Positions 2,588-53,712 of a stretch of 64,000 bases of DNA are shown in pieces; the stretch's first letter is position 1; each line of letters begins with the position of its first letter. Source of the DNA: Candidatus Campbellbacteria bacterium (GTDB lineage: Bacteria > Patescibacteriota > Minisyncoccia > Phycocordibacterales > EsbW-18); NCBI GenBank assembly GCA_016699465.1, contig CP064977.1:138096-202095 (forward strand), written 5' to 3'. Under the pieces are notes generated by a model. That model did no database searches. It was not told where the DNA came from and saw only the letters and a program-made list of their open reading frames with translations. A program made the translations under genes and the position numbers.

Positions 2588-2722
2588 GATTTTTTGCGGG
2601 GACGAGGCGCAAACATATCTTTCCTGACAGCTTCCACTGTCGGTTGGACGGAGCACCTTGCTTTTGCAGGTTGCTGACGGGTCATAGAGCCAATTCTCTC
2701 GCCGTCTCTTCATACAACTATT
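2588..2722 (-). promoter_or_regulatory. Candidate SAM-I (S-box) riboswitch aptamer in the metK leader
   Basis: The minus-strand sequence AAGAGACGGCGAGAGAAUUGGCUCUAUGACCCGUCAGCAACC ... AGGUGCUCCGUCC ... GACAGUGGAAGCUGUC resembles the S-box core (AAGAGnGGnGGAGGGAnUGGCCCnAUGAnnCCnGGCAACC, GGUGCnAAnUCC, GCAGnGGAAnCUGC). GGAAAGAU can pair with AUCUUUCC as an antiterminator. Confidence 0.5.
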
Positions 2723-47911: not shown

Positions 47912-48589
47912 TTACGGACCAGGCCACGTAAACTTATGTGTCCAGTTGGTTGAGCTTGTATTCGTGTAGCTGGAACAATTAACACCCGGTGTGCAGTAAT
48001 CACCGCCCGGAAAACGCTGGGTGTTGCTGTAGCGCATTGAATACACGGATACTGTGTATGTTGCAGGATACCCGGCGTGAACATGTGTTCCGTTCCAAAG
48101 ACCACAACCCGTGTCATTGACGATGTTGCCAATGAACTTAACGTTGTATGTATCGTTACCGGCTGTGGCAATAGGAAACTCCTGATTTGAGTTCATGTCG
48201 ATATGAAGATATCGCATGATTCCCCTAATCTTGAGTAGTGCCGTGTCAGCAACAACAACATCTTGCCTCTCACAATCAAAATTACCACCAGTGAGACGAA
48301 CTCGCCTACCAATGAGTCGTGTGGTCTCGTAGGGAGAACTCCCCCTACTAAAAAAACCGCGGAAGTAGACTGCATTGGAGCTGGTGTTGTCCCAATCAAG
48401 GAACGTACCGGTTGACGTTGTTCCGCACGAACCATCGTGCCAGCCACACGTCAAAACAGGCACCTGACCGTTCGTGCCAGATGGAGGAAGCATCTTCACA
48501 ACGTACGTGTAGAGCGTGCCACTTTCGGCAGGAAACGTACCACCAAAAAAGGCACCGAGCAGAATAGGGACCAACCACCTCAGTCGCAT
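47912..48589 (-). CDS. Secreted Cys-rich hypothetical protein (signal peptide), moderately GC-rich; HIDM and THVH motifs hint at a metallo-hydrolase
   Basis: N-terminal MRLRWLVPILLGAFFGG signal peptide; AGGAGA RBS. Confidence 0.45.
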   Translation of the reverse strand: MRLRWLVPILLGAFFGGTFPAESGTLYTYVVKMLPPSGTNGQVPVLTCGWHDGSCGTTSTGTFLDWDNTSSNAVYFRGFFSRGSSPYETTRLIGRRVRLTGGNFDCERQDVVVADTALLKIRGIMRYLHIDMNSNQEFPIATAGNDTYNVKFIGNIVNDTGCGLWNGTHVHAGYPATYTVSVYSMRYSNTQRFPGGDYCTPGVNCSSYTNTSSTNWTHKFTWPGP

Positions 48590-48603: not shown

Positions 48604-49317
48604 TTACTGCGTTCTCGTGCTGGATGCAACGAGCTCAACAAGTTTCATAAACTCTTCTCTAGGGAGGCTAGACGTATGAACAAACGTCAAACCAAACGAT
48701 TCCGGAATCATGGCAATTCCGTTTTCCAAAAAACCGTCTTCCGTGAGGGGTTCGATTACAACCACATCCCTACCAGCAATCTTCATCACCTTTGGACGGT
48801 CCGAGGCAGTGTCGATTTCATCATAATTTAGAACAGTTCGTCCAATAATGATGAGCGCCTGGCTGTGCCCCTTGATCGAATCATCGTAGGTGTAGGTCTT
48901 TTTGGCGATATACGGAACGCCATTTCCACAAGCAACAACCCCGTAATCCATATCATCCTTTTGGATGGCATACTCAGTCGGAAGTTCGAGGTCGAGTGTG
49001 AGTTGACCAGCCTGATCGTCCGGAATAGTAATTGACGATGGCTCGAGACCACACACATCTTCAAACGACGTGTACTTCTCGGGTACAGGTACACCATGTG
49101 GAGCAAGGAAAATGCCACCAATGTCACCACTGAAACGTGGCTTGTTGCGTTCGATGGCAAGTGCGGCGTCACGAATCAAAATGGGGTTTGACAGACGCAC
49201 ATCATCACCGGCGACAAGCGTGGTGCGAAAGTACAACGTTGCACCAAATCCGGTCACGACGAGAAGAACGAAGAGAAGAATGGTACGGGGCGAGAACGTG
49301 GACGTCGAGATGCTCAT
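48604..49317 (-). CDS. N-terminally membrane-anchored hypothetical protein (start moved to MSISTSTF)
   Basis: TM ILLFVLLVVTGFGATLYF, AAGGA RBS; forms an operon with the downstream secreted protein. Confidence 0.4.
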   Translation of the reverse strand: MSISTSTFSPRTILLFVLLVVTGFGATLYFRTTLVAGDDVRLSNPILIRDAALAIERNKPRFSGDIGGIFLAPHGVPVPEKYTSFEDVCGLEPSSITIPDDQAGQLTLDLELPTEYAIQKDDMDYGVVACGNGVPYIAKKTYTYDDSIKGHSQALIIIGRTVLNYDEIDTASDRPKVMKIAGRDVVVIEPLTEDGFLENGIAMIPESFGLTFVHTSSLPREEFMKLVELVASSTRTQ

Positions 49318-49546
49318 AGTTTTTCCTTGTGAGATGGTGGTTATGAATAGAACTTGTTGATAATACCCACTACGACACGACAGCTGACACAAAAACTTTT
49401 TTCCTCCTTTCTGTTGTCAAAGATCTTTCTGGGCGTCAGTGTATACAAGAGAAATGAAGAAAAAATAAAATAATGTTTCTATAATCTAAGACAAGGATAG
49501 TGTAGCAAAACAAGGTCTAAAATGTTATTATTGCTCTCTACAAAGA

Positions 49547-51520: not shown

Positions 51521-51527
51521 GAACGCG

Positions 51528-51575
51528 AAACAGCCCCGCCGAGTACAAAGTACGTCGGCGGGGCTGTTTCATTTT
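51528..51575. terminator. Bidirectional terminator between rnr and the propeller-like gene
   Basis: cagccccgccga/tcggcggggctg 12-bp stem with A/T flanks. Confidence 0.7.
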
Positions 51576-51588
51576 CGCTTTCTACTTT

Positions 51589-53457
51589 CTACATCCCCGC
51601 CAGCTGTTGTTGGAGTAGTGCCACGAGTTGTTGAATCAGAGAAACAACCTGTACTTTGATATCAGCGATGAGTTTCGTTCGTTCGTCAGGAGTGAGAGGT
51701 GTGTCGGATGTGGGTGGTAGTAGTGGAGATGGTGGTGGTGTAACGGTATGTGGTTGAGTGGTGGTACGAGTGCTTCCGCCACTTCCTCCATTGGTGTTTG
51801 AGGGTGAGTCATTAGCGGTGAGGGTACAGGTGTAGGTGGTGTTGAGGGACATGGTGAGAGTTCCATCTGATGCACAGTCGCCACCCCAGGTGATGTCATA
51901 GGTGGTGCCAGCGGGTGTTGCGTGGGTGAGCGTATGGGCGGTGGCGAGAGTCGTGGTGGCGACTGCGCTGGTGATAGGGAGACCATCAAGGTAGAGGGTG
52001 AAGTCTGCTACCTCTGCAGTACCACGGTCGTCGTTGGTGAGTGTGGTGGTGACGGTGAGGGTTGGTCCAATGTCGTCATTGGTGACGGTACATGCATACG
52101 TACTTCCCGCCTCCATGGTGATGTCACCGTTTTCGTCACAGTCTCCGCCATATGTGACGGCATACGCAGGGTCTTCTGTTTCGGAGATGGTGTATGAACC
52201 TGCTGACAGTGTGGTGGTGGCTACGCCACTGTCGATGGAGACACCATCAACAAACAACGGAAAGTCCTCGACGGCGAGTGTTCCTCCGTTGTCGTTGGTG
52301 ACTGTGGTGGTGATGGTGAGGGTCGGAGAAGAGGGCGGGTATGCAAACTTAAGATCAGCGTTGGTGGTGTCGTAGTAGCTTATGAGCGGAACGTCATCGG
52401 TGTCGAGAAAGATTGATGGGTACGTACCAACAGTACCCGATGAGTCAACAGTTTCAGTGGTGTTCGTCGAACAATCCGCATTGGTGCACTGGAGAAGCTC
52501 AAGATCGCCGTCCGCATCGTCGTAATATGCGATTCGAGCGAAGCCATCAGACCCCATGGCGGAAGATATACCCTGCCCCGCACCTCCCAACGGATCAACA
52601 ATGGTGCTGGTATTTTTCGTTGAACAATCGGCGTTGGTGCACTGAACAAAGCGTAATGTGCCACCACCGTAATAATAAATAATACGAACAAAACCATCCA
52701 AACCAAGAGAGAGTCCCGTGTTCACTAACCCGAGATTATCTGAATCAACAATCGTGATGTTTTTTGTTGAACACGACGCATTGGTACACTGAGCAAATTT
52801 CAAAAGAGCGTTATACGAATCGTTGTAACTAATACGCGCGAAACCATCGCCACCAATAACAAGAGACGTACCGTCCCCAAGCAGGTCGCCTCCGGGATCA
52901 ACTCCGGTGTCAACCACCGTAGTGACCCGCGTCGAACAATCGGCATTGGTACATTGAATAAATTTCAAACTATTAGGAACAAAGTCATCGTAACTATTGT
53001 ATGAAATGCGCGCGAAACCATCCCCTCCCATCGCGATAGACGTGTATCTTCCGACAGAACCAGTCGAATCAATGGTTGTTATGACATTCGTCGAACATGC
53101 GGCATTAGTACACCGAACAAATTTGAGATCTTTGTTTGTAAAGTCGTTGTACGCAATGCGTGCAAAACCATCAGCACCTATCGCAATAGACGTGTATCGC
53201 CCAACAACCCCTGTTGAGTCGATTGTTGTGACAACCTTTGTTGAACAGTCTGCATTCGTACACTGAATGAATTTGAGGTTCGTATTGGTAACATCGTAAT
53301 ACGCGATGCGCGCAAAACCATCCAAACCACGTGCGCTAGATACATACTGTCCAACGTTTCCCGTCGAATCGAGCGCTGTTGTTGTCCACGTCGCCGCAGA
53401 AACAAGTGATGGAACACTAATAATTAAAAACGCGACAACAAATAGAAGTTTTTTCAT
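51589..53457 (-). CDS. Secreted repeat protein: signal peptide, about eight ~46-aa propeller-like repeats each with a Cys pair, two ~85-aa beta-sandwich-like repeats, low-complexity Pro/Thr linker and a C-terminal helix
   Basis: Repeat unit TTIDSTGxVGRYTSIAxGxDGFARIAYxDxTNxDLKFxxCTNAxCST; C-terminal PTLTxTTTxTNDxxGT ... GGDC ... TYxCTxT repeated twice. Confidence 0.6.
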   Translation of the reverse strand: MKKLLFVVAFLIISVPSLVSAATWTTTALDSTGNVGQYVSSARGLDGFARIAYYDVTNTNLKFIQCTNADCSTKVVTTIDSTGVVGRYTSIAIGADGFARIAYNDFTNKDLKFVRCTNAACSTNVITTIDSTGSVGRYTSIAMGGDGFARISYNSYDDFVPNSLKFIQCTNADCSTRVTTVVDTGVDPGGDLLGDGTSLVIGGDGFARISYNDSYNALLKFAQCTNASCSTKNITIVDSDNLGLVNTGLSLGLDGFVRIIYYYGGGTLRFVQCTNADCSTKNTSTIVDPLGGAGQGISSAMGSDGFARIAYYDDADGDLELLQCTNADCSTNTTETVDSSGTVGTYPSIFLDTDDVPLISYYDTTNADLKFAYPPSSPTLTITTTVTNDNGGTLAVEDFPLFVDGVSIDSGVATTTLSAGSYTISETEDPAYAVTYGGDCDENGDITMEAGSTYACTVTNDDIGPTLTVTTTLTNDDRGTAEVADFTLYLDGLPITSAVATTTLATAHTLTHATPAGTTYDITWGGDCASDGTLTMSLNTTYTCTLTANDSPSNTNGGSGGSTRTTTQPHTVTPPPSPLLPPTSDTPLTPDERTKLIADIKVQVVSLIQQLVALLQQQLAGM

Positions 53458-53559
53458 ACATTTTTAAGTTAAACAACTCCACCAGCTAAAACCATATCTC
53501 ATATAGCATACCATCCACCCCATTCTTCGCGTCAGTACTTTGTGTATAACTTTTTTTAA

Positions 53560-53690
53560 ATAGTATGTAGTAGCTGGTATGTAGTATGCGGGAGGAGATT
53601 TTGGATATTTGCCTGCCTGCGCAGGCAGGATATTAGATTTTTCCACCCCCTACATACTAACTACCAAATACCAGCTACCATTCCTCTATC
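53560..53690. promoter_or_regulatory. Structured element in a divergent promoter region: perfect 18-bp palindrome CCTGCCTGCGCAGGCAGG flanked by imperfect inverted tacatacta / taccagctac arms
   Basis: Read directly; the tacatactac motif recurs at 59080-59105. Confidence 0.35.
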
Positions 53691-53712
53691 TGGCGTTGTA
53701 CACTATGTACAT

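What the first reader, a model, noticed from the sequence alone, without database searches (positions are those of the whole stretch)
51589..53457. Secreted propeller-like protein with Cys-paired 46-aa repeats and two Ig-like C-terminal repeats
A signal peptide is followed by about eight repeats (TTIDSTGxVGRYTSIAxGxDGFARIAYxDxTNxDLKFxxCTNAxCST), each with two Cys four residues apart. Next come two ~85-aa repeats with a GGDC motif and a Thr/Pro-rich linker, and the protein ends in a coiled C-terminal helix. It is likely a surface-displayed binding protein. For an epibiont this is a candidate host-attachment factor.
Basis: partly seen in the sequence, partly recalled or inferred. Interest (0 to 1): 0.55.

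Follow-up and report, generated by a model that had tools for sequence, protein, structure and literature searches.

The report
Secreted seven-bladed propeller on Ig-like stalk
This gene of a tiny-genome Campbellbacteria bacterium encodes an exported protein with a seven-bladed, cysteine-clamped propeller head on a two-domain stalk, so it is a plausible but untested binding or attachment protein from a very large family that no curated database describes.

Summary
There are seven repeats of 45-55 aa, not eight of 46. Six end in CTNxxC; the last has no Cys pair. AlphaFold2 predicts a seven-bladed, four-stranded beta-propeller (pLDDT 91-98). The nearest solved folds are the Photorhabdus PLL/PHL fucose lectins, with no sequence homology. 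Two CnaB/SpaA-type beta-sandwich domains follow (pLDDT ~97), then a Pro/Thr linker and a 32-residue amphipathic helix that is not a membrane span.

The propeller family is very large: 14,302 clusters at 50% identity, with repeat counts peaking at 7, 14 and 21. No Pfam or NCBIfam model covers it. In other Patescibacteria the same propeller sits on ~970-aa proteins inside type IV pilus operons. Elsewhere it is fused to SLH, LysM, SH3 or PKD domains.

A paralogue in the same genome (QQR82752.1) has a PD40 propeller on a 99%-identical copy of the stalk, linker and helix, so heads are exchanged on a shared stalk. The gene is syntenic with a 63%-identical orthologue and evolves about three times faster than its housekeeping neighbours.

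An extracellular location is well supported. A binding or adhesion role is inferred. How the protein is anchored is unknown.

The parts
51589..53457 (-). Complete gene, 622 codons plus TAG stop
   Evidence: ORF list. A full-length orthologue, P0001, is 63% identical and syntenic. dN/dS is about 0.14.
53395..53457 (-). Sec-type signal peptide, residues 1-21 (MKKLLFVVAFLIISVPSLVSA)
   Evidence: Only hydrophobic segment above the membrane-span threshold. No lipobox. 38% identical over the first 61 residues to the N-terminus of the paralogue P0009.
52330..53394 (-). Seven-bladed beta-propeller, residues 22-376. Blades cover 53239-53394, 53089-53238, 52930-53088, 52765-52929, 52618-52764, 52465-52617 and 52330-52464. 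Blades 1-6 each end in a CTNxxC connector.
   Evidence: AlphaFold2 predicts 28 strands at pLDDT 91-98. Best Foldseek matches are PLL/PHL lectins, E 4e-14, TM 0.71-0.77.
52066..52329 (-). Stalk domain 1, residues 377-464: CnaB/SpaA_2-type beta-sandwich with Cys440/Cys456
   Evidence: AlphaFold2 pLDDT about 97. Foldseek matches PitA, SdrD B domains, SHIRT and Spy0128. Pfam SpaA_2 scores 21.4 bits, against a cut-off of 25.
51805..52065 (-). Stalk domain 2, residues 465-551: same fold, with Cys528/Cys544
51691..51804 (-). Gly/Ser then Pro/Thr-rich linker, residues 552-589, predicted disordered
   Evidence: pLDDT below 50. Composition. Highest dN/dS of any segment, 0.40.
51592..51690 (-). C-terminal amphipathic helix, residues 590-622 (DERTKLIADIKVQVVSLIQQLVALLQQQLAGM)
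   Evidence: Predicted as a helix in both models, pLDDT 79-93. Mean hydropathy is 0.46 and the hydrophobic moment 1.12; the heptad a/d positions are mostly L/I/V. Conserved in P0001 and identical in P0009.
51526..51571 (.). G+C-rich hairpin between the convergent gene ends (this gene and RNase R); likely a bidirectional terminator
   Evidence: Folding energy -39.4 kcal/mol, z-score -7.7. Arms located.

Best explanation
The gene encodes an exported, extracellular modular protein. Its 'head' is a seven-bladed, four-stranded beta-propeller. The connector between each pair of consecutive blades is a CTNxxC loop, most likely closed by a disulfide. That gives six clamps for seven blades, and the last blade needs none. 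The head most likely binds a ligand multivalently, and a glycan or another repetitive cell-surface polymer is the most likely target. Two CnaB/SpaA-type beta-sandwich domains form a rigid stalk. A flexible Pro/Thr linker and a C-terminal amphipathic helix then tether or oligomerise the protein, either as a coiled coil or by lying in the plane of the membrane. The stalk, linker and helix form a cassette shared with at least one other exported protein of the same genome, which carries a different propeller head. The organism therefore displays alternative heads on one common stalk.

Shown: the ORF, the repeats, the folds, the family size, the genomic contexts of relatives and the shared cassette.

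Inferred: the disulfides, the ligand class, the role of the helix, surface retention and any role in host attachment.
For: Export: a signal peptide with an AXA-type site and no other hydrophobic span.

Head:
- AlphaFold2 predicts 28 strands in 7 blades at pLDDT 91-98.
- The top 21 PDB matches are all seven-bladed Photorhabdus lectins (E 4e-14 to 5e-12, TM 0.71-0.77). These bind sugars between adjacent blades (PMC6943638).
- Conserved residues recur in every blade, and the Cys are at least 90% conserved across 121 homologues.
- Among 244 homologues, repeat counts peak at 7 (145 proteins), 14 (35) and 21 (8).

Use as a displayed module:
- Homologues of ~970 aa that are 46-52% identical sit between three prepilin-motif minor pilins and PilM, in PilB-PilC-...-PilM-PilN operons.
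- Five of 28 GTDB loci show this context.
- A propeller-bearing PilX2 is needed for efficient host binding in Saccharibacteria TM7x (PMC11623550).
- Other homologues carry SLH, LysM, SH3_3, PKD, fn3 or FG-GAP domains.

Stalk:
- pLDDT is about 97, and the matches are Gram-positive pilin and MSCRAMM stalk domains.
- Homologous stalk domains elsewhere end in LPATG or FPNTG sortase signals.

Cassette:
- The C-terminal 246 aa are 243/246 identical to QQR82752.1. That protein has seven PD40-type repeats and comes from the same 811-kb genome.
- A third gene, in L014, shares the DNA of stalk domain 1 at 262/264 nt and then diverges.

Real and evolving fast: a syntenic orthologue exists with dN/dS about 0.14. 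Its dN is 0.27, against 0.07-0.10 for RNase R, SMC, TrmD and the PH-domain gene.
Against: - There is no direct evidence of binding or of a ligand.
- The Trp-lined inter-blade pockets of PLL lectins are absent: the propeller has one Trp. Sequence search against the PDB finds nothing.
- No recognised anchor is present: no LPXTG, lipobox, membrane span, SLH or LysM. The helix tail found no relatives in the one search that could be run. The protein might simply be released.
- The gene's neighbours are housekeeping genes, not pilus or symbiosis genes.
- The family also occurs in lineages not known as epibionts.
Confidence: 0.55

Rival explanations
1. It is a structural envelope protein, an S-layer or surface-lattice subunit. 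The propeller and stalk would build a coat, and the C-terminal helix would mediate lattice or membrane contacts. There would be no specific host ligand.
For: The mature protein is strongly acidic and Thr/Ser/Gly-rich (66 D+E against 26 K+R; T 16.5%), as many S-layer proteins are. Some homologues carry SLH domains. From my own knowledge, not tested here: archaeal S-layer proteins combine a seven-bladed YVTN propeller with PKD (Ig-like) domains. The helix could drive oligomerisation.
Against: The same propeller is used as a module of pilus-operon proteins and of giant multi-propeller proteins of up to 7,237 aa. That fits a binding module better than a lattice subunit. A second head type sits on the identical stalk. 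The gene evolves three times faster than its neighbours. Nothing is known about its expression level.
Confidence: 0.17
2. It is a secreted carbohydrate-active enzyme, a beta-propeller glycoside hydrolase or polysaccharide lyase, presented on a stalk to degrade host or environmental glycans.
For: Second-tier structural matches are GH145 BT3686, L-rhamnose-alpha-1,4-D-glucuronate lyase and sialidases (E 1e-9 to 1e-7, TM 0.4-0.64).
Against: These matches are weaker than the lectin matches. The conserved residues are the same in every blade, which is the pattern of structural or multivalent sites rather than one asymmetric active site. No Pfam or NCBIfam enzyme family is hit.
Confidence: 0.1
3. 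It is a soluble released lectin or effector, not surface-attached. The helix would only oligomerise it, as in the dimeric and tetrameric PLL/PHL lectins.
For: No recognised anchor is present. The closest folds are soluble oligomeric lectins (PMC6943638).
Against: Stalk domains of this type are typical of cell-anchored proteins, and homologous stalks end in sortase signals. A long Pro/Thr spacer before a terminal helix looks like a tether.
Confidence: 0.13
4. It is an assembly chimera or a decaying pseudogene, created by the 740-nt near-identical repeat shared with the PD40 gene.
For: The exact protein is absent from the 15-billion-sequence collection although its neighbours are present. A 99%-identical repeat within a MAG is a classic site of misjoining. 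The L014 contig breaks exactly at this repeat.
Against: An independent MAG has the same full architecture, from signal peptide through propeller, two stalk domains and linker to helix, at 63% identity and with the same flanking genes on both sides. The ORF is intact and under purifying selection in every segment.
Confidence: 0.03

Closest known systems
Photorhabdus PLL-family lectins (PLL, PLL2-5, PHL; e.g. PDB 5c9l, 6rg2, 5mxg)
   Same: A seven-bladed propeller of about 350 aa, built from ~50-aa four-stranded blades that repeat almost exactly. These are the best structural matches (E about 1e-13, TM about 0.75). They are multivalent lectins with sites between adjacent blades (PMC6943638).
   Different: Only 12-16% identity and no sequence-level hit. 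The Trp residues that line the PLL sugar pockets are missing. PLL lectins have no intra-chain CxxxxC connectors, stalk domains, linker or tail helix. Their cysteines form inter-subunit bridges (PMC6943638).
Large propeller-bearing proteins of patescibacterial type IV pilus operons (P0049 in Terrybacteria, P0004; functional precedent PilX2 of Saccharibacteria TM7x)
   Same: P0049 and P0004 carry the same Cys-clamped propeller family, 46-52% identical over residues ~22-372. TM7x PilX2 also has a heptabladed propeller, and deleting it halves host binding (PMC11623550). The 'effector module grafted on a carrier' logic follows the modular-pilin concept (PMC8179133).
   Different: The window protein has a cleavable Sec signal peptide instead of a pilin-like N-terminus. 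It is not in a pilus operon. Its C-terminal part is a SpaA-type stalk rather than the choice-of-anchor-R region. The TM7x PilX2 propeller is of the RCC1 type, a different repeat family.
CnaB / SpaA-type (prealbumin-like) stalk domains of Gram-positive pilins and MSCRAMMs (PitA, SdrD B repeats, Spy0128, SHIRT, Cna B repeat; Pfam SpaA_2 PF19403)
   Same: The fold of residues 377-551. The domains occur in tandem below a functional head. Homologous repeats elsewhere end in sortase signals.
   Different: The Pfam score is just below cut-off (21.4 against 25 bits). Each domain has a conserved Cys pair. The first-strand Lys present in most homologues (TVTK) is Thr in both domains here, so a Lys-Asn isopeptide bond is unlikely. 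There is no LPXTG sorting signal.
PilY1/PilC tip adhesins (IPR008707 propeller)
   Same: A seven-bladed propeller used for pilus-associated adhesion. It is cited as an analogue for the CPR propeller pilins (PMC11623550, PMC8179133).
   Different: No sequence or top-ranking structural match here. The repeat family is different, and the protein is not pilus-associated in this genome region.

Membership tests
PLL-family seven-bladed lectins | Seven four-stranded blades (W-motifs) forming a torus | tested here: met
   AlphaFold2 predicts 28 strands at pLDDT 91-98. Foldseek TM is 0.71-0.77 to 21 PLL/PHL entries.
PLL-family seven-bladed lectins | Detectable sequence homology and Trp-lined inter-blade sugar pockets | tested here: not met
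   phmmer against all PDB sequences gives no hit at E<=10. Identity in the structural alignment is 12-16%. The propeller contains a single Trp, W24.
PLL-family seven-bladed lectins | Binds fucose or O-methylated sugars | not testable with these tools
   Needs a glycan array or ITC.
Pfam SpaA_2 (PF19403) prealbumin-like / CnaB-type stalk domain | Sequence score at or above the gathering cut-off (25 bits) | tested here: inconclusive
   The query scores 21.4 bits, E 3.9e-4. The 99%-identical module of P0009 scores 25.1 bits. Most homologues of the module carry a precomputed PF19403 hit.
Pfam SpaA_2 (PF19403) prealbumin-like / CnaB-type stalk domain | Beta-sandwich fold of Gram-positive pilin or MSCRAMM stalk domains | tested here: met
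   pLDDT is about 97. Foldseek hits include PitA, SpyCEP, SHIRT, SdrD, TIE, Spy0128 and the Cna B repeat.
Isopeptide-bonded CnaB domains | Lys in the first strand paired with Asn/Asp in the last strand | tested here: not met
   Most homologues have TVTK in the first strand. Both query domains have Thr at that position (TITT, TVTT), although the last-strand TNDD / TAND is kept. That the family's Lys forms an isopeptide bond is itself an inference.
Sortase-anchored (LPXTG) surface proteins | C-terminal LPXTG-type motif, then a hydrophobic span, then a basic tail | tested here: not met
   The only candidate is 'LPPTS' at 580, which is not conserved in P0001 or L014. The helix has mean hydropathy 0.46, and the protein ends ...QQQLAGM with no basic residues.
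Modular type IV pilins / PilX-like minor pilins | N-terminal prepilin-type hydrophobic helix | tested here: not met
   The N-terminus is a Sec-type signal peptide with VSA|A. By contrast, P0004, P0029 and P0049 begin ...NGFA(S/A)L + a ~20-residue hydrophobic stretch.
Modular type IV pilins / PilX-like minor pilins | Encoded within a type IV pilus gene cluster | tested here: not met
   The neighbours are RNase R, an 83-aa ORF, a PH-domain protein and SMC. tblastn with PilB/C/M/N finds nothing in the window.
Modular type IV pilins / PilX-like minor pilins | Effector module homologous to the one displayed by pilus-operon proteins | tested here: met
   46-52% identity over the propeller to P0004 and P0049, which lie between minor pilins and PilM.
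Curated propeller repeat families (WD40, PD40, Kelch, YVTN, NHL, FG-GAP, BNR, RCC1, PQQ) | Match to the family HMM | tested here: not met
   No propeller family appears even at E<=10 in Pfam or NCBIfam. The only hits are spurious zinc-ribbon models triggered by CxxxxC.

The most novel reading that the evidence does not exclude
Patescibacteria may use a large, uncurated family of disulfide-clamped seven-bladed propellers as their general host- or surface-recognition module. The module would be mounted either on type IV pilus minor pilins or, as here, on a recombining SpaA-type stalk. That stalk ends in a previously undescribed C-terminal helix that anchors or oligomerises the protein. Near-identical stalk cassettes shared between genes with different heads would then reflect ongoing gene conversion that reshuffles recognition heads, a cassette system for changing attachment specificity.
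Probability: 0.15. Interest if true: 0.7.

Novelty: new variant of a known kind. Interest (0 to 1): 0.48.

Why it matters
How ultrasmall CPR/Patescibacteria recognise and hold on to partner cells is largely unknown. The only genetic evidence so far points to a propeller-bearing pilus protein in Saccharibacteria.

This locus draws attention to a different propeller family. It is very abundant (more than 14,000 clusters at 50% identity) and has no curated model. It recurs on pilus-operon proteins, on wall-anchored proteins and on this stalked secreted protein.

It also shows that one organism mounts different propellers on an identical stalk-and-tail cassette.

This yields three concrete follow-ups:
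- a domain worth a Pfam entry;
- a candidate ligand-binding head for binding assays;
- an unexplained C-terminal helix that may be a new way of tethering exported proteins in these bacteria.

If the protein is merely a structural or released lectin-like protein, the finding is of routine interest.

Tried and rejected
- Pfam and NCBIfam scans of the protein gave only sub-threshold zinc-ribbon hits (Ogr_Delta, PyrI_C, IBR, PRK09678). These are artefacts of the repeated CxxxxC and were rejected.
- Sequence search against PDB chains found nothing.
- I looked for other copies of the propeller or the stalk/tail in the 64-kb window. There are none.
- I searched for relatives of the linker and helix tail with a 3-sequence profile. 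Whether the tail is a widespread sorting or anchoring signal stays open.
- I tried to fetch the DNA of the PD40 paralogue QQR82752.1 to date the gene conversion. It is not on record, and the genome is not among the GTDB representatives scanned.
- A metagenome scan with the C-terminal module returned only distant stalk-domain relatives, 31-45% identical.
- Pfam on the N-termini of the ~970-aa homologues did not hit PilX_N or N_methyl. Their pilin-like nature rests on operon context and the G-F-A-S-L + hydrophobic motif.
- Sortase motif: 'LPPTS' at 580 was rejected because it is not conserved and lacks a membrane span and basic tail.
- Promoter scan: no sigma-70-like site was found upstream.
- I asked whether GenBank annotates this gene. 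The exact sequence is absent from the collection, and one accession number (QQR82682) remains for two ORFs, so this cannot be decided.
Full report
**Observation.** The window holds an intact ORF at exactly 51589-53457 on the - strand, encoding 622 aa.
- Its first 21 residues (MKKLLFVVAFLIISVPSLVSA) form a Sec-type signal peptide with a V-S-A cleavage-type site.
- This is the only segment of the protein hydrophobic enough to span a membrane. There is no lipobox.
- Seven tandem repeats of 45-55 aa follow (residues 22-376), not 'about eight' of 46.
- The repeats are 33-74% identical to one another. Their local alignment scores average 112, against 22.5 +/- 4.9 for shuffled sequence.
- The first six repeats end in CTNA[DAS]C. 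The seventh has no cysteine.
- Two repeats of 88 and 87 aa follow, each with GGDC and a second Cys 16 residues later. Their alignment score is 219, against 41 +/- 7 for shuffles.
- Next come a Gly/Ser then Pro/Thr-rich stretch and a terminal helix.

**Origin and reality of the gene.**
- The flanking RNase R and SMC proteins are exact matches to QQR82681.1 and QQR82684.1, from an 811,376-bp Candidatus Campbellbacteria contig.
- The 187-aa PH-domain neighbour is QQR82683.1.
- The exact 622-aa sequence is not in the protein collection. I cannot tell whether GenBank annotates it.
- A second Campbellbacteria MAG encodes a full-length orthologue (P0001, 63% identical, same domain order).
- That orthologue lies in the same neighbourhood: SMC, the PH-domain gene, the 83-aa gene, then the orthologue convergent with RNase R. 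The one difference is an extra 772-aa gene inserted upstream.
- dN/dS is about 0.14 overall and 0.08-0.17 in the folded parts. It is 0.40 in the linker. dS is saturated, so these values are rough.
- dN is 0.27, against 0.07-0.10 for RNase R, SMC, TrmD and the PH-domain gene. The gene is constrained but evolves about three times faster than its housekeeping neighbours.
- A strong hairpin (-39.4 kcal/mol, z -7.7) lies between the convergent gene ends.
- This evidence argues against a pseudogene or an assembly chimera.

**The head.**
- AlphaFold2, run with a 121-sequence alignment, predicts residues 22-373 as 28 beta-strands in seven four-stranded blades, at pLDDT 91-98.
- Each sequence repeat is one blade (A-B-C-D). 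The CTNxxC motif begins at the last residue of strand D and runs into the loop leading to strand A of the next blade.
- This explains why seven blades carry six Cys pairs.
- The pair is the most conserved feature of the family: at least 90% conserved in 121 homologues, and about 77% of 2,465 repeat instances, close to 6/7.
- I infer a short disulfide-closed connector that clamps neighbouring blades.
- Foldseek against the PDB puts 21 entries of the Photorhabdus PLL/PHL/PLL2-5 lectins on top (E 4e-14 to 5e-12, TM 0.71-0.77, 12-16% identity).
- Propeller glycoside hydrolases, a rhamnose-glucuronate lyase and sialidases follow.
- PLL lectins are seven-bladed and bind sugars between adjacent blades (PMC6943638).
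- There is no sequence homology to any PDB chain, and the Trp residues of the PLL pockets are absent.
- The protein therefore resembles these lectins in fold and in its near-perfect sevenfold repetition, but it is not a member of their family.

**The family.**
- No Pfam or NCBIfam model covers the repeat. The only hits are sub-threshold zinc-ribbon models triggered by CxxxxC.
- Yet the family is very large. phmmer of the propeller against 1.84 billion cluster representatives finds 14,302 proteins at E<=1e-3, 9,111 at E<=1e-10 and 3,001 at E<=1e-30. Some are giant proteins of up to 7,237 aa.
- Among 244 retrieved homologues, repeat counts peak at 7 (145 proteins), 14 (35) and 21 (8), as expected for seven-bladed units.
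- Named members are mostly Patescibacteria: Campbell-, Sung-, Azam-, Terry-, Moran-, Uhr-, Giovannoni-, Kaiser-, Wolfe- and Curtissbacteria, Gracilibacteria and Saccharimonadales. Members labelled Nitrospiria, Actinomycetota and Planctomycetes also occur.

**Context of relatives.**
- The commonest architecture is a protein of ~960-980 aa, 46-52% identical over the propeller.
- Its gene lies inside a type IV pilus operon in the order histidine kinase, response regulator, PilB, PilC, three small proteins with canonical prepilin motifs, the propeller protein, PilM, PilN.
- Five of 28 GTDB loci show this context.
- Their N-termini (...NGFASL + a hydrophobic stretch) look PilX-like, although Pfam does not confirm this.
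- In Saccharibacteria TM7x a minor pilin with a different (RCC1-type) heptabladed propeller is required for efficient host binding (PMC11623550).
- The idea of functional modules grafted on pilins is established (PMC8179133).
- Other homologues fuse the propeller to SLH, LysM, SH3_3, PKD, fn3 or FG-GAP domains.
- All of this places the module outside the cell and suggests it is a displayed functional head.

**The stalk and tail.**
- With a dedicated alignment, AlphaFold2 predicts residues 377-551 as two beta-sandwiches (pLDDT about 97), followed by a disordered linker and a helix at 590-620.
- Foldseek matches CnaB/SpaA-type stalk domains of Gram-positive pilins and MSCRAMMs: PitA, SpyCEP, SHIRT, SdrD B domains, TIE, Spy0128 and the Cna B repeat.
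- Pfam SpaA_2 scores 21.4 bits here and 25.1 bits, just above the cut-off of 25, on the 99%-identical copy in P0009.
- Homologous stalk repeats elsewhere end in classical sortase signals: LPATG or FPNTG, then a membrane span, then a basic tail.
- The window protein has no such signal. Instead it has the Pro/Thr linker and an amphipathic helix that is too polar for a membrane span (mean hydropathy 0.46, moment 1.12, L/I/V at heptad a/d positions, no basic tail).
- I infer oligomerisation by coiled coil, or peripheral membrane association. Neither was testable, and a profile search for the tail found nothing.

**A shared cassette.**
- The last 246 residues (both stalk domains, the linker and the helix) are 243/246 identical to the C-terminus of QQR82752.1.
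- That protein is encoded about 70 genes away in the same genome.
- Its head is an unrelated propeller of seven PD40-type repeats, and its N-terminus is similar (38% identity over the first 61 residues).
- A third gene, on a non-syntenic contig of another MAG (L014), shares the DNA of stalk domain 1 at 262/264 nt and then falls to about 50%.
- Different heads are therefore mounted on a stalk that is being homogenised or exchanged by recombination.
- The orthologue comparison shows the propeller-on-stalk architecture itself is at least as old as the split between the two Campbellbacteria genomes.

**Verdict.**
- The architecture is well supported: an exported protein with a seven-bladed Cys-clamped propeller, two CnaB/SpaA-type stalk domains, a linker and a helix.
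- A multivalent binding or adhesion role is the best-supported function. It rests on fold resemblance and on how relatives deploy the module, not on any direct test.
- Surface retention is unexplained.
- Rivals are a structural envelope (S-layer-like) protein, a released lectin, a propeller enzyme and, least likely, an assembly artefact.
- I rate it as a new variant of a known kind (a modular bacterial surface or lectin-like protein) and of moderate interest.
- The interest lies mainly in three things: the size of the uncurated propeller family, its link to patescibacterial pili, and the shared stalk/tail cassette.

Noticed in passing
window 61724-62560 (-), 62564-63712 (-), and a third copy running off the end at about 63716-64000 (-): These are tandem paralogous genes with nearly identical ~125-aa N-terminal domains. 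Each then carries 7-13 copies of a 21-aa leucine-rich-type repeat (LxLxxLTSAEGLxLPxSIGGxLxL; 63-nt DNA period). No signal peptide is evident, and the only Pfam hit is a spurious HNH_5 match.
   Followed up: partly
window 2612-2718 (-): SAM riboswitch (RF00162), 53.8 bits, above the gathering score. It is the only Rfam match in the window.
   Followed up: no
L001 7513-9831 (+), compared with window 53458-53712: In the syntenic Campbellbacteria relative, an extra 772-aa secreted protein lies directly upstream of the orthologue. It has a weak Peptidase_S74 (tail-spike intramolecular chaperone) match and a Pro-rich tail. The window has only a 255-nt intergenic gap there.
   Followed up: partly
L014 1-723 (contig CAZMAP010000015.1): The contig starts exactly at stalk domain 1. 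It is 262/264 nt identical to the window over that domain and then drops to about 50% identity. It has a different tail helix (…EERTQKIEEIKRLLIPLMRQLILELQSQLDALGA) and is not syntenic with the window. This is either a recombination mosaic or an assembly break at a repeat.
   Followed up: partly
window 47912-48589 (-) and 48604-49392 (-): Two ORFs with no Pfam hit on record for their counterparts in L001. They diverge from those counterparts as fast as the propeller gene (dN 0.29-0.34, against 0.07-0.10 for housekeeping neighbours). They may be further envelope or secreted proteins.
   Followed up: no
P0066 and P0132 (homologues of the stalk domain): Tandem SpaA_2-like domains in other lineages end in classical sortase sorting signals: LPATGG + membrane span + KRRG in P0066, and FPNTGA + membrane span + RKSNQ in P0132. 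The Campbellbacteria proteins replace this with a Pro/Thr linker and an amphipathic helix.
   Followed up: partly
window 51526-51571: A 20-bp-stem G+C-rich hairpin lies between the convergent ends of the propeller gene and RNase R (-39.4 kcal/mol, z -7.7). It is likely a bidirectional terminator.
   Followed up: yes
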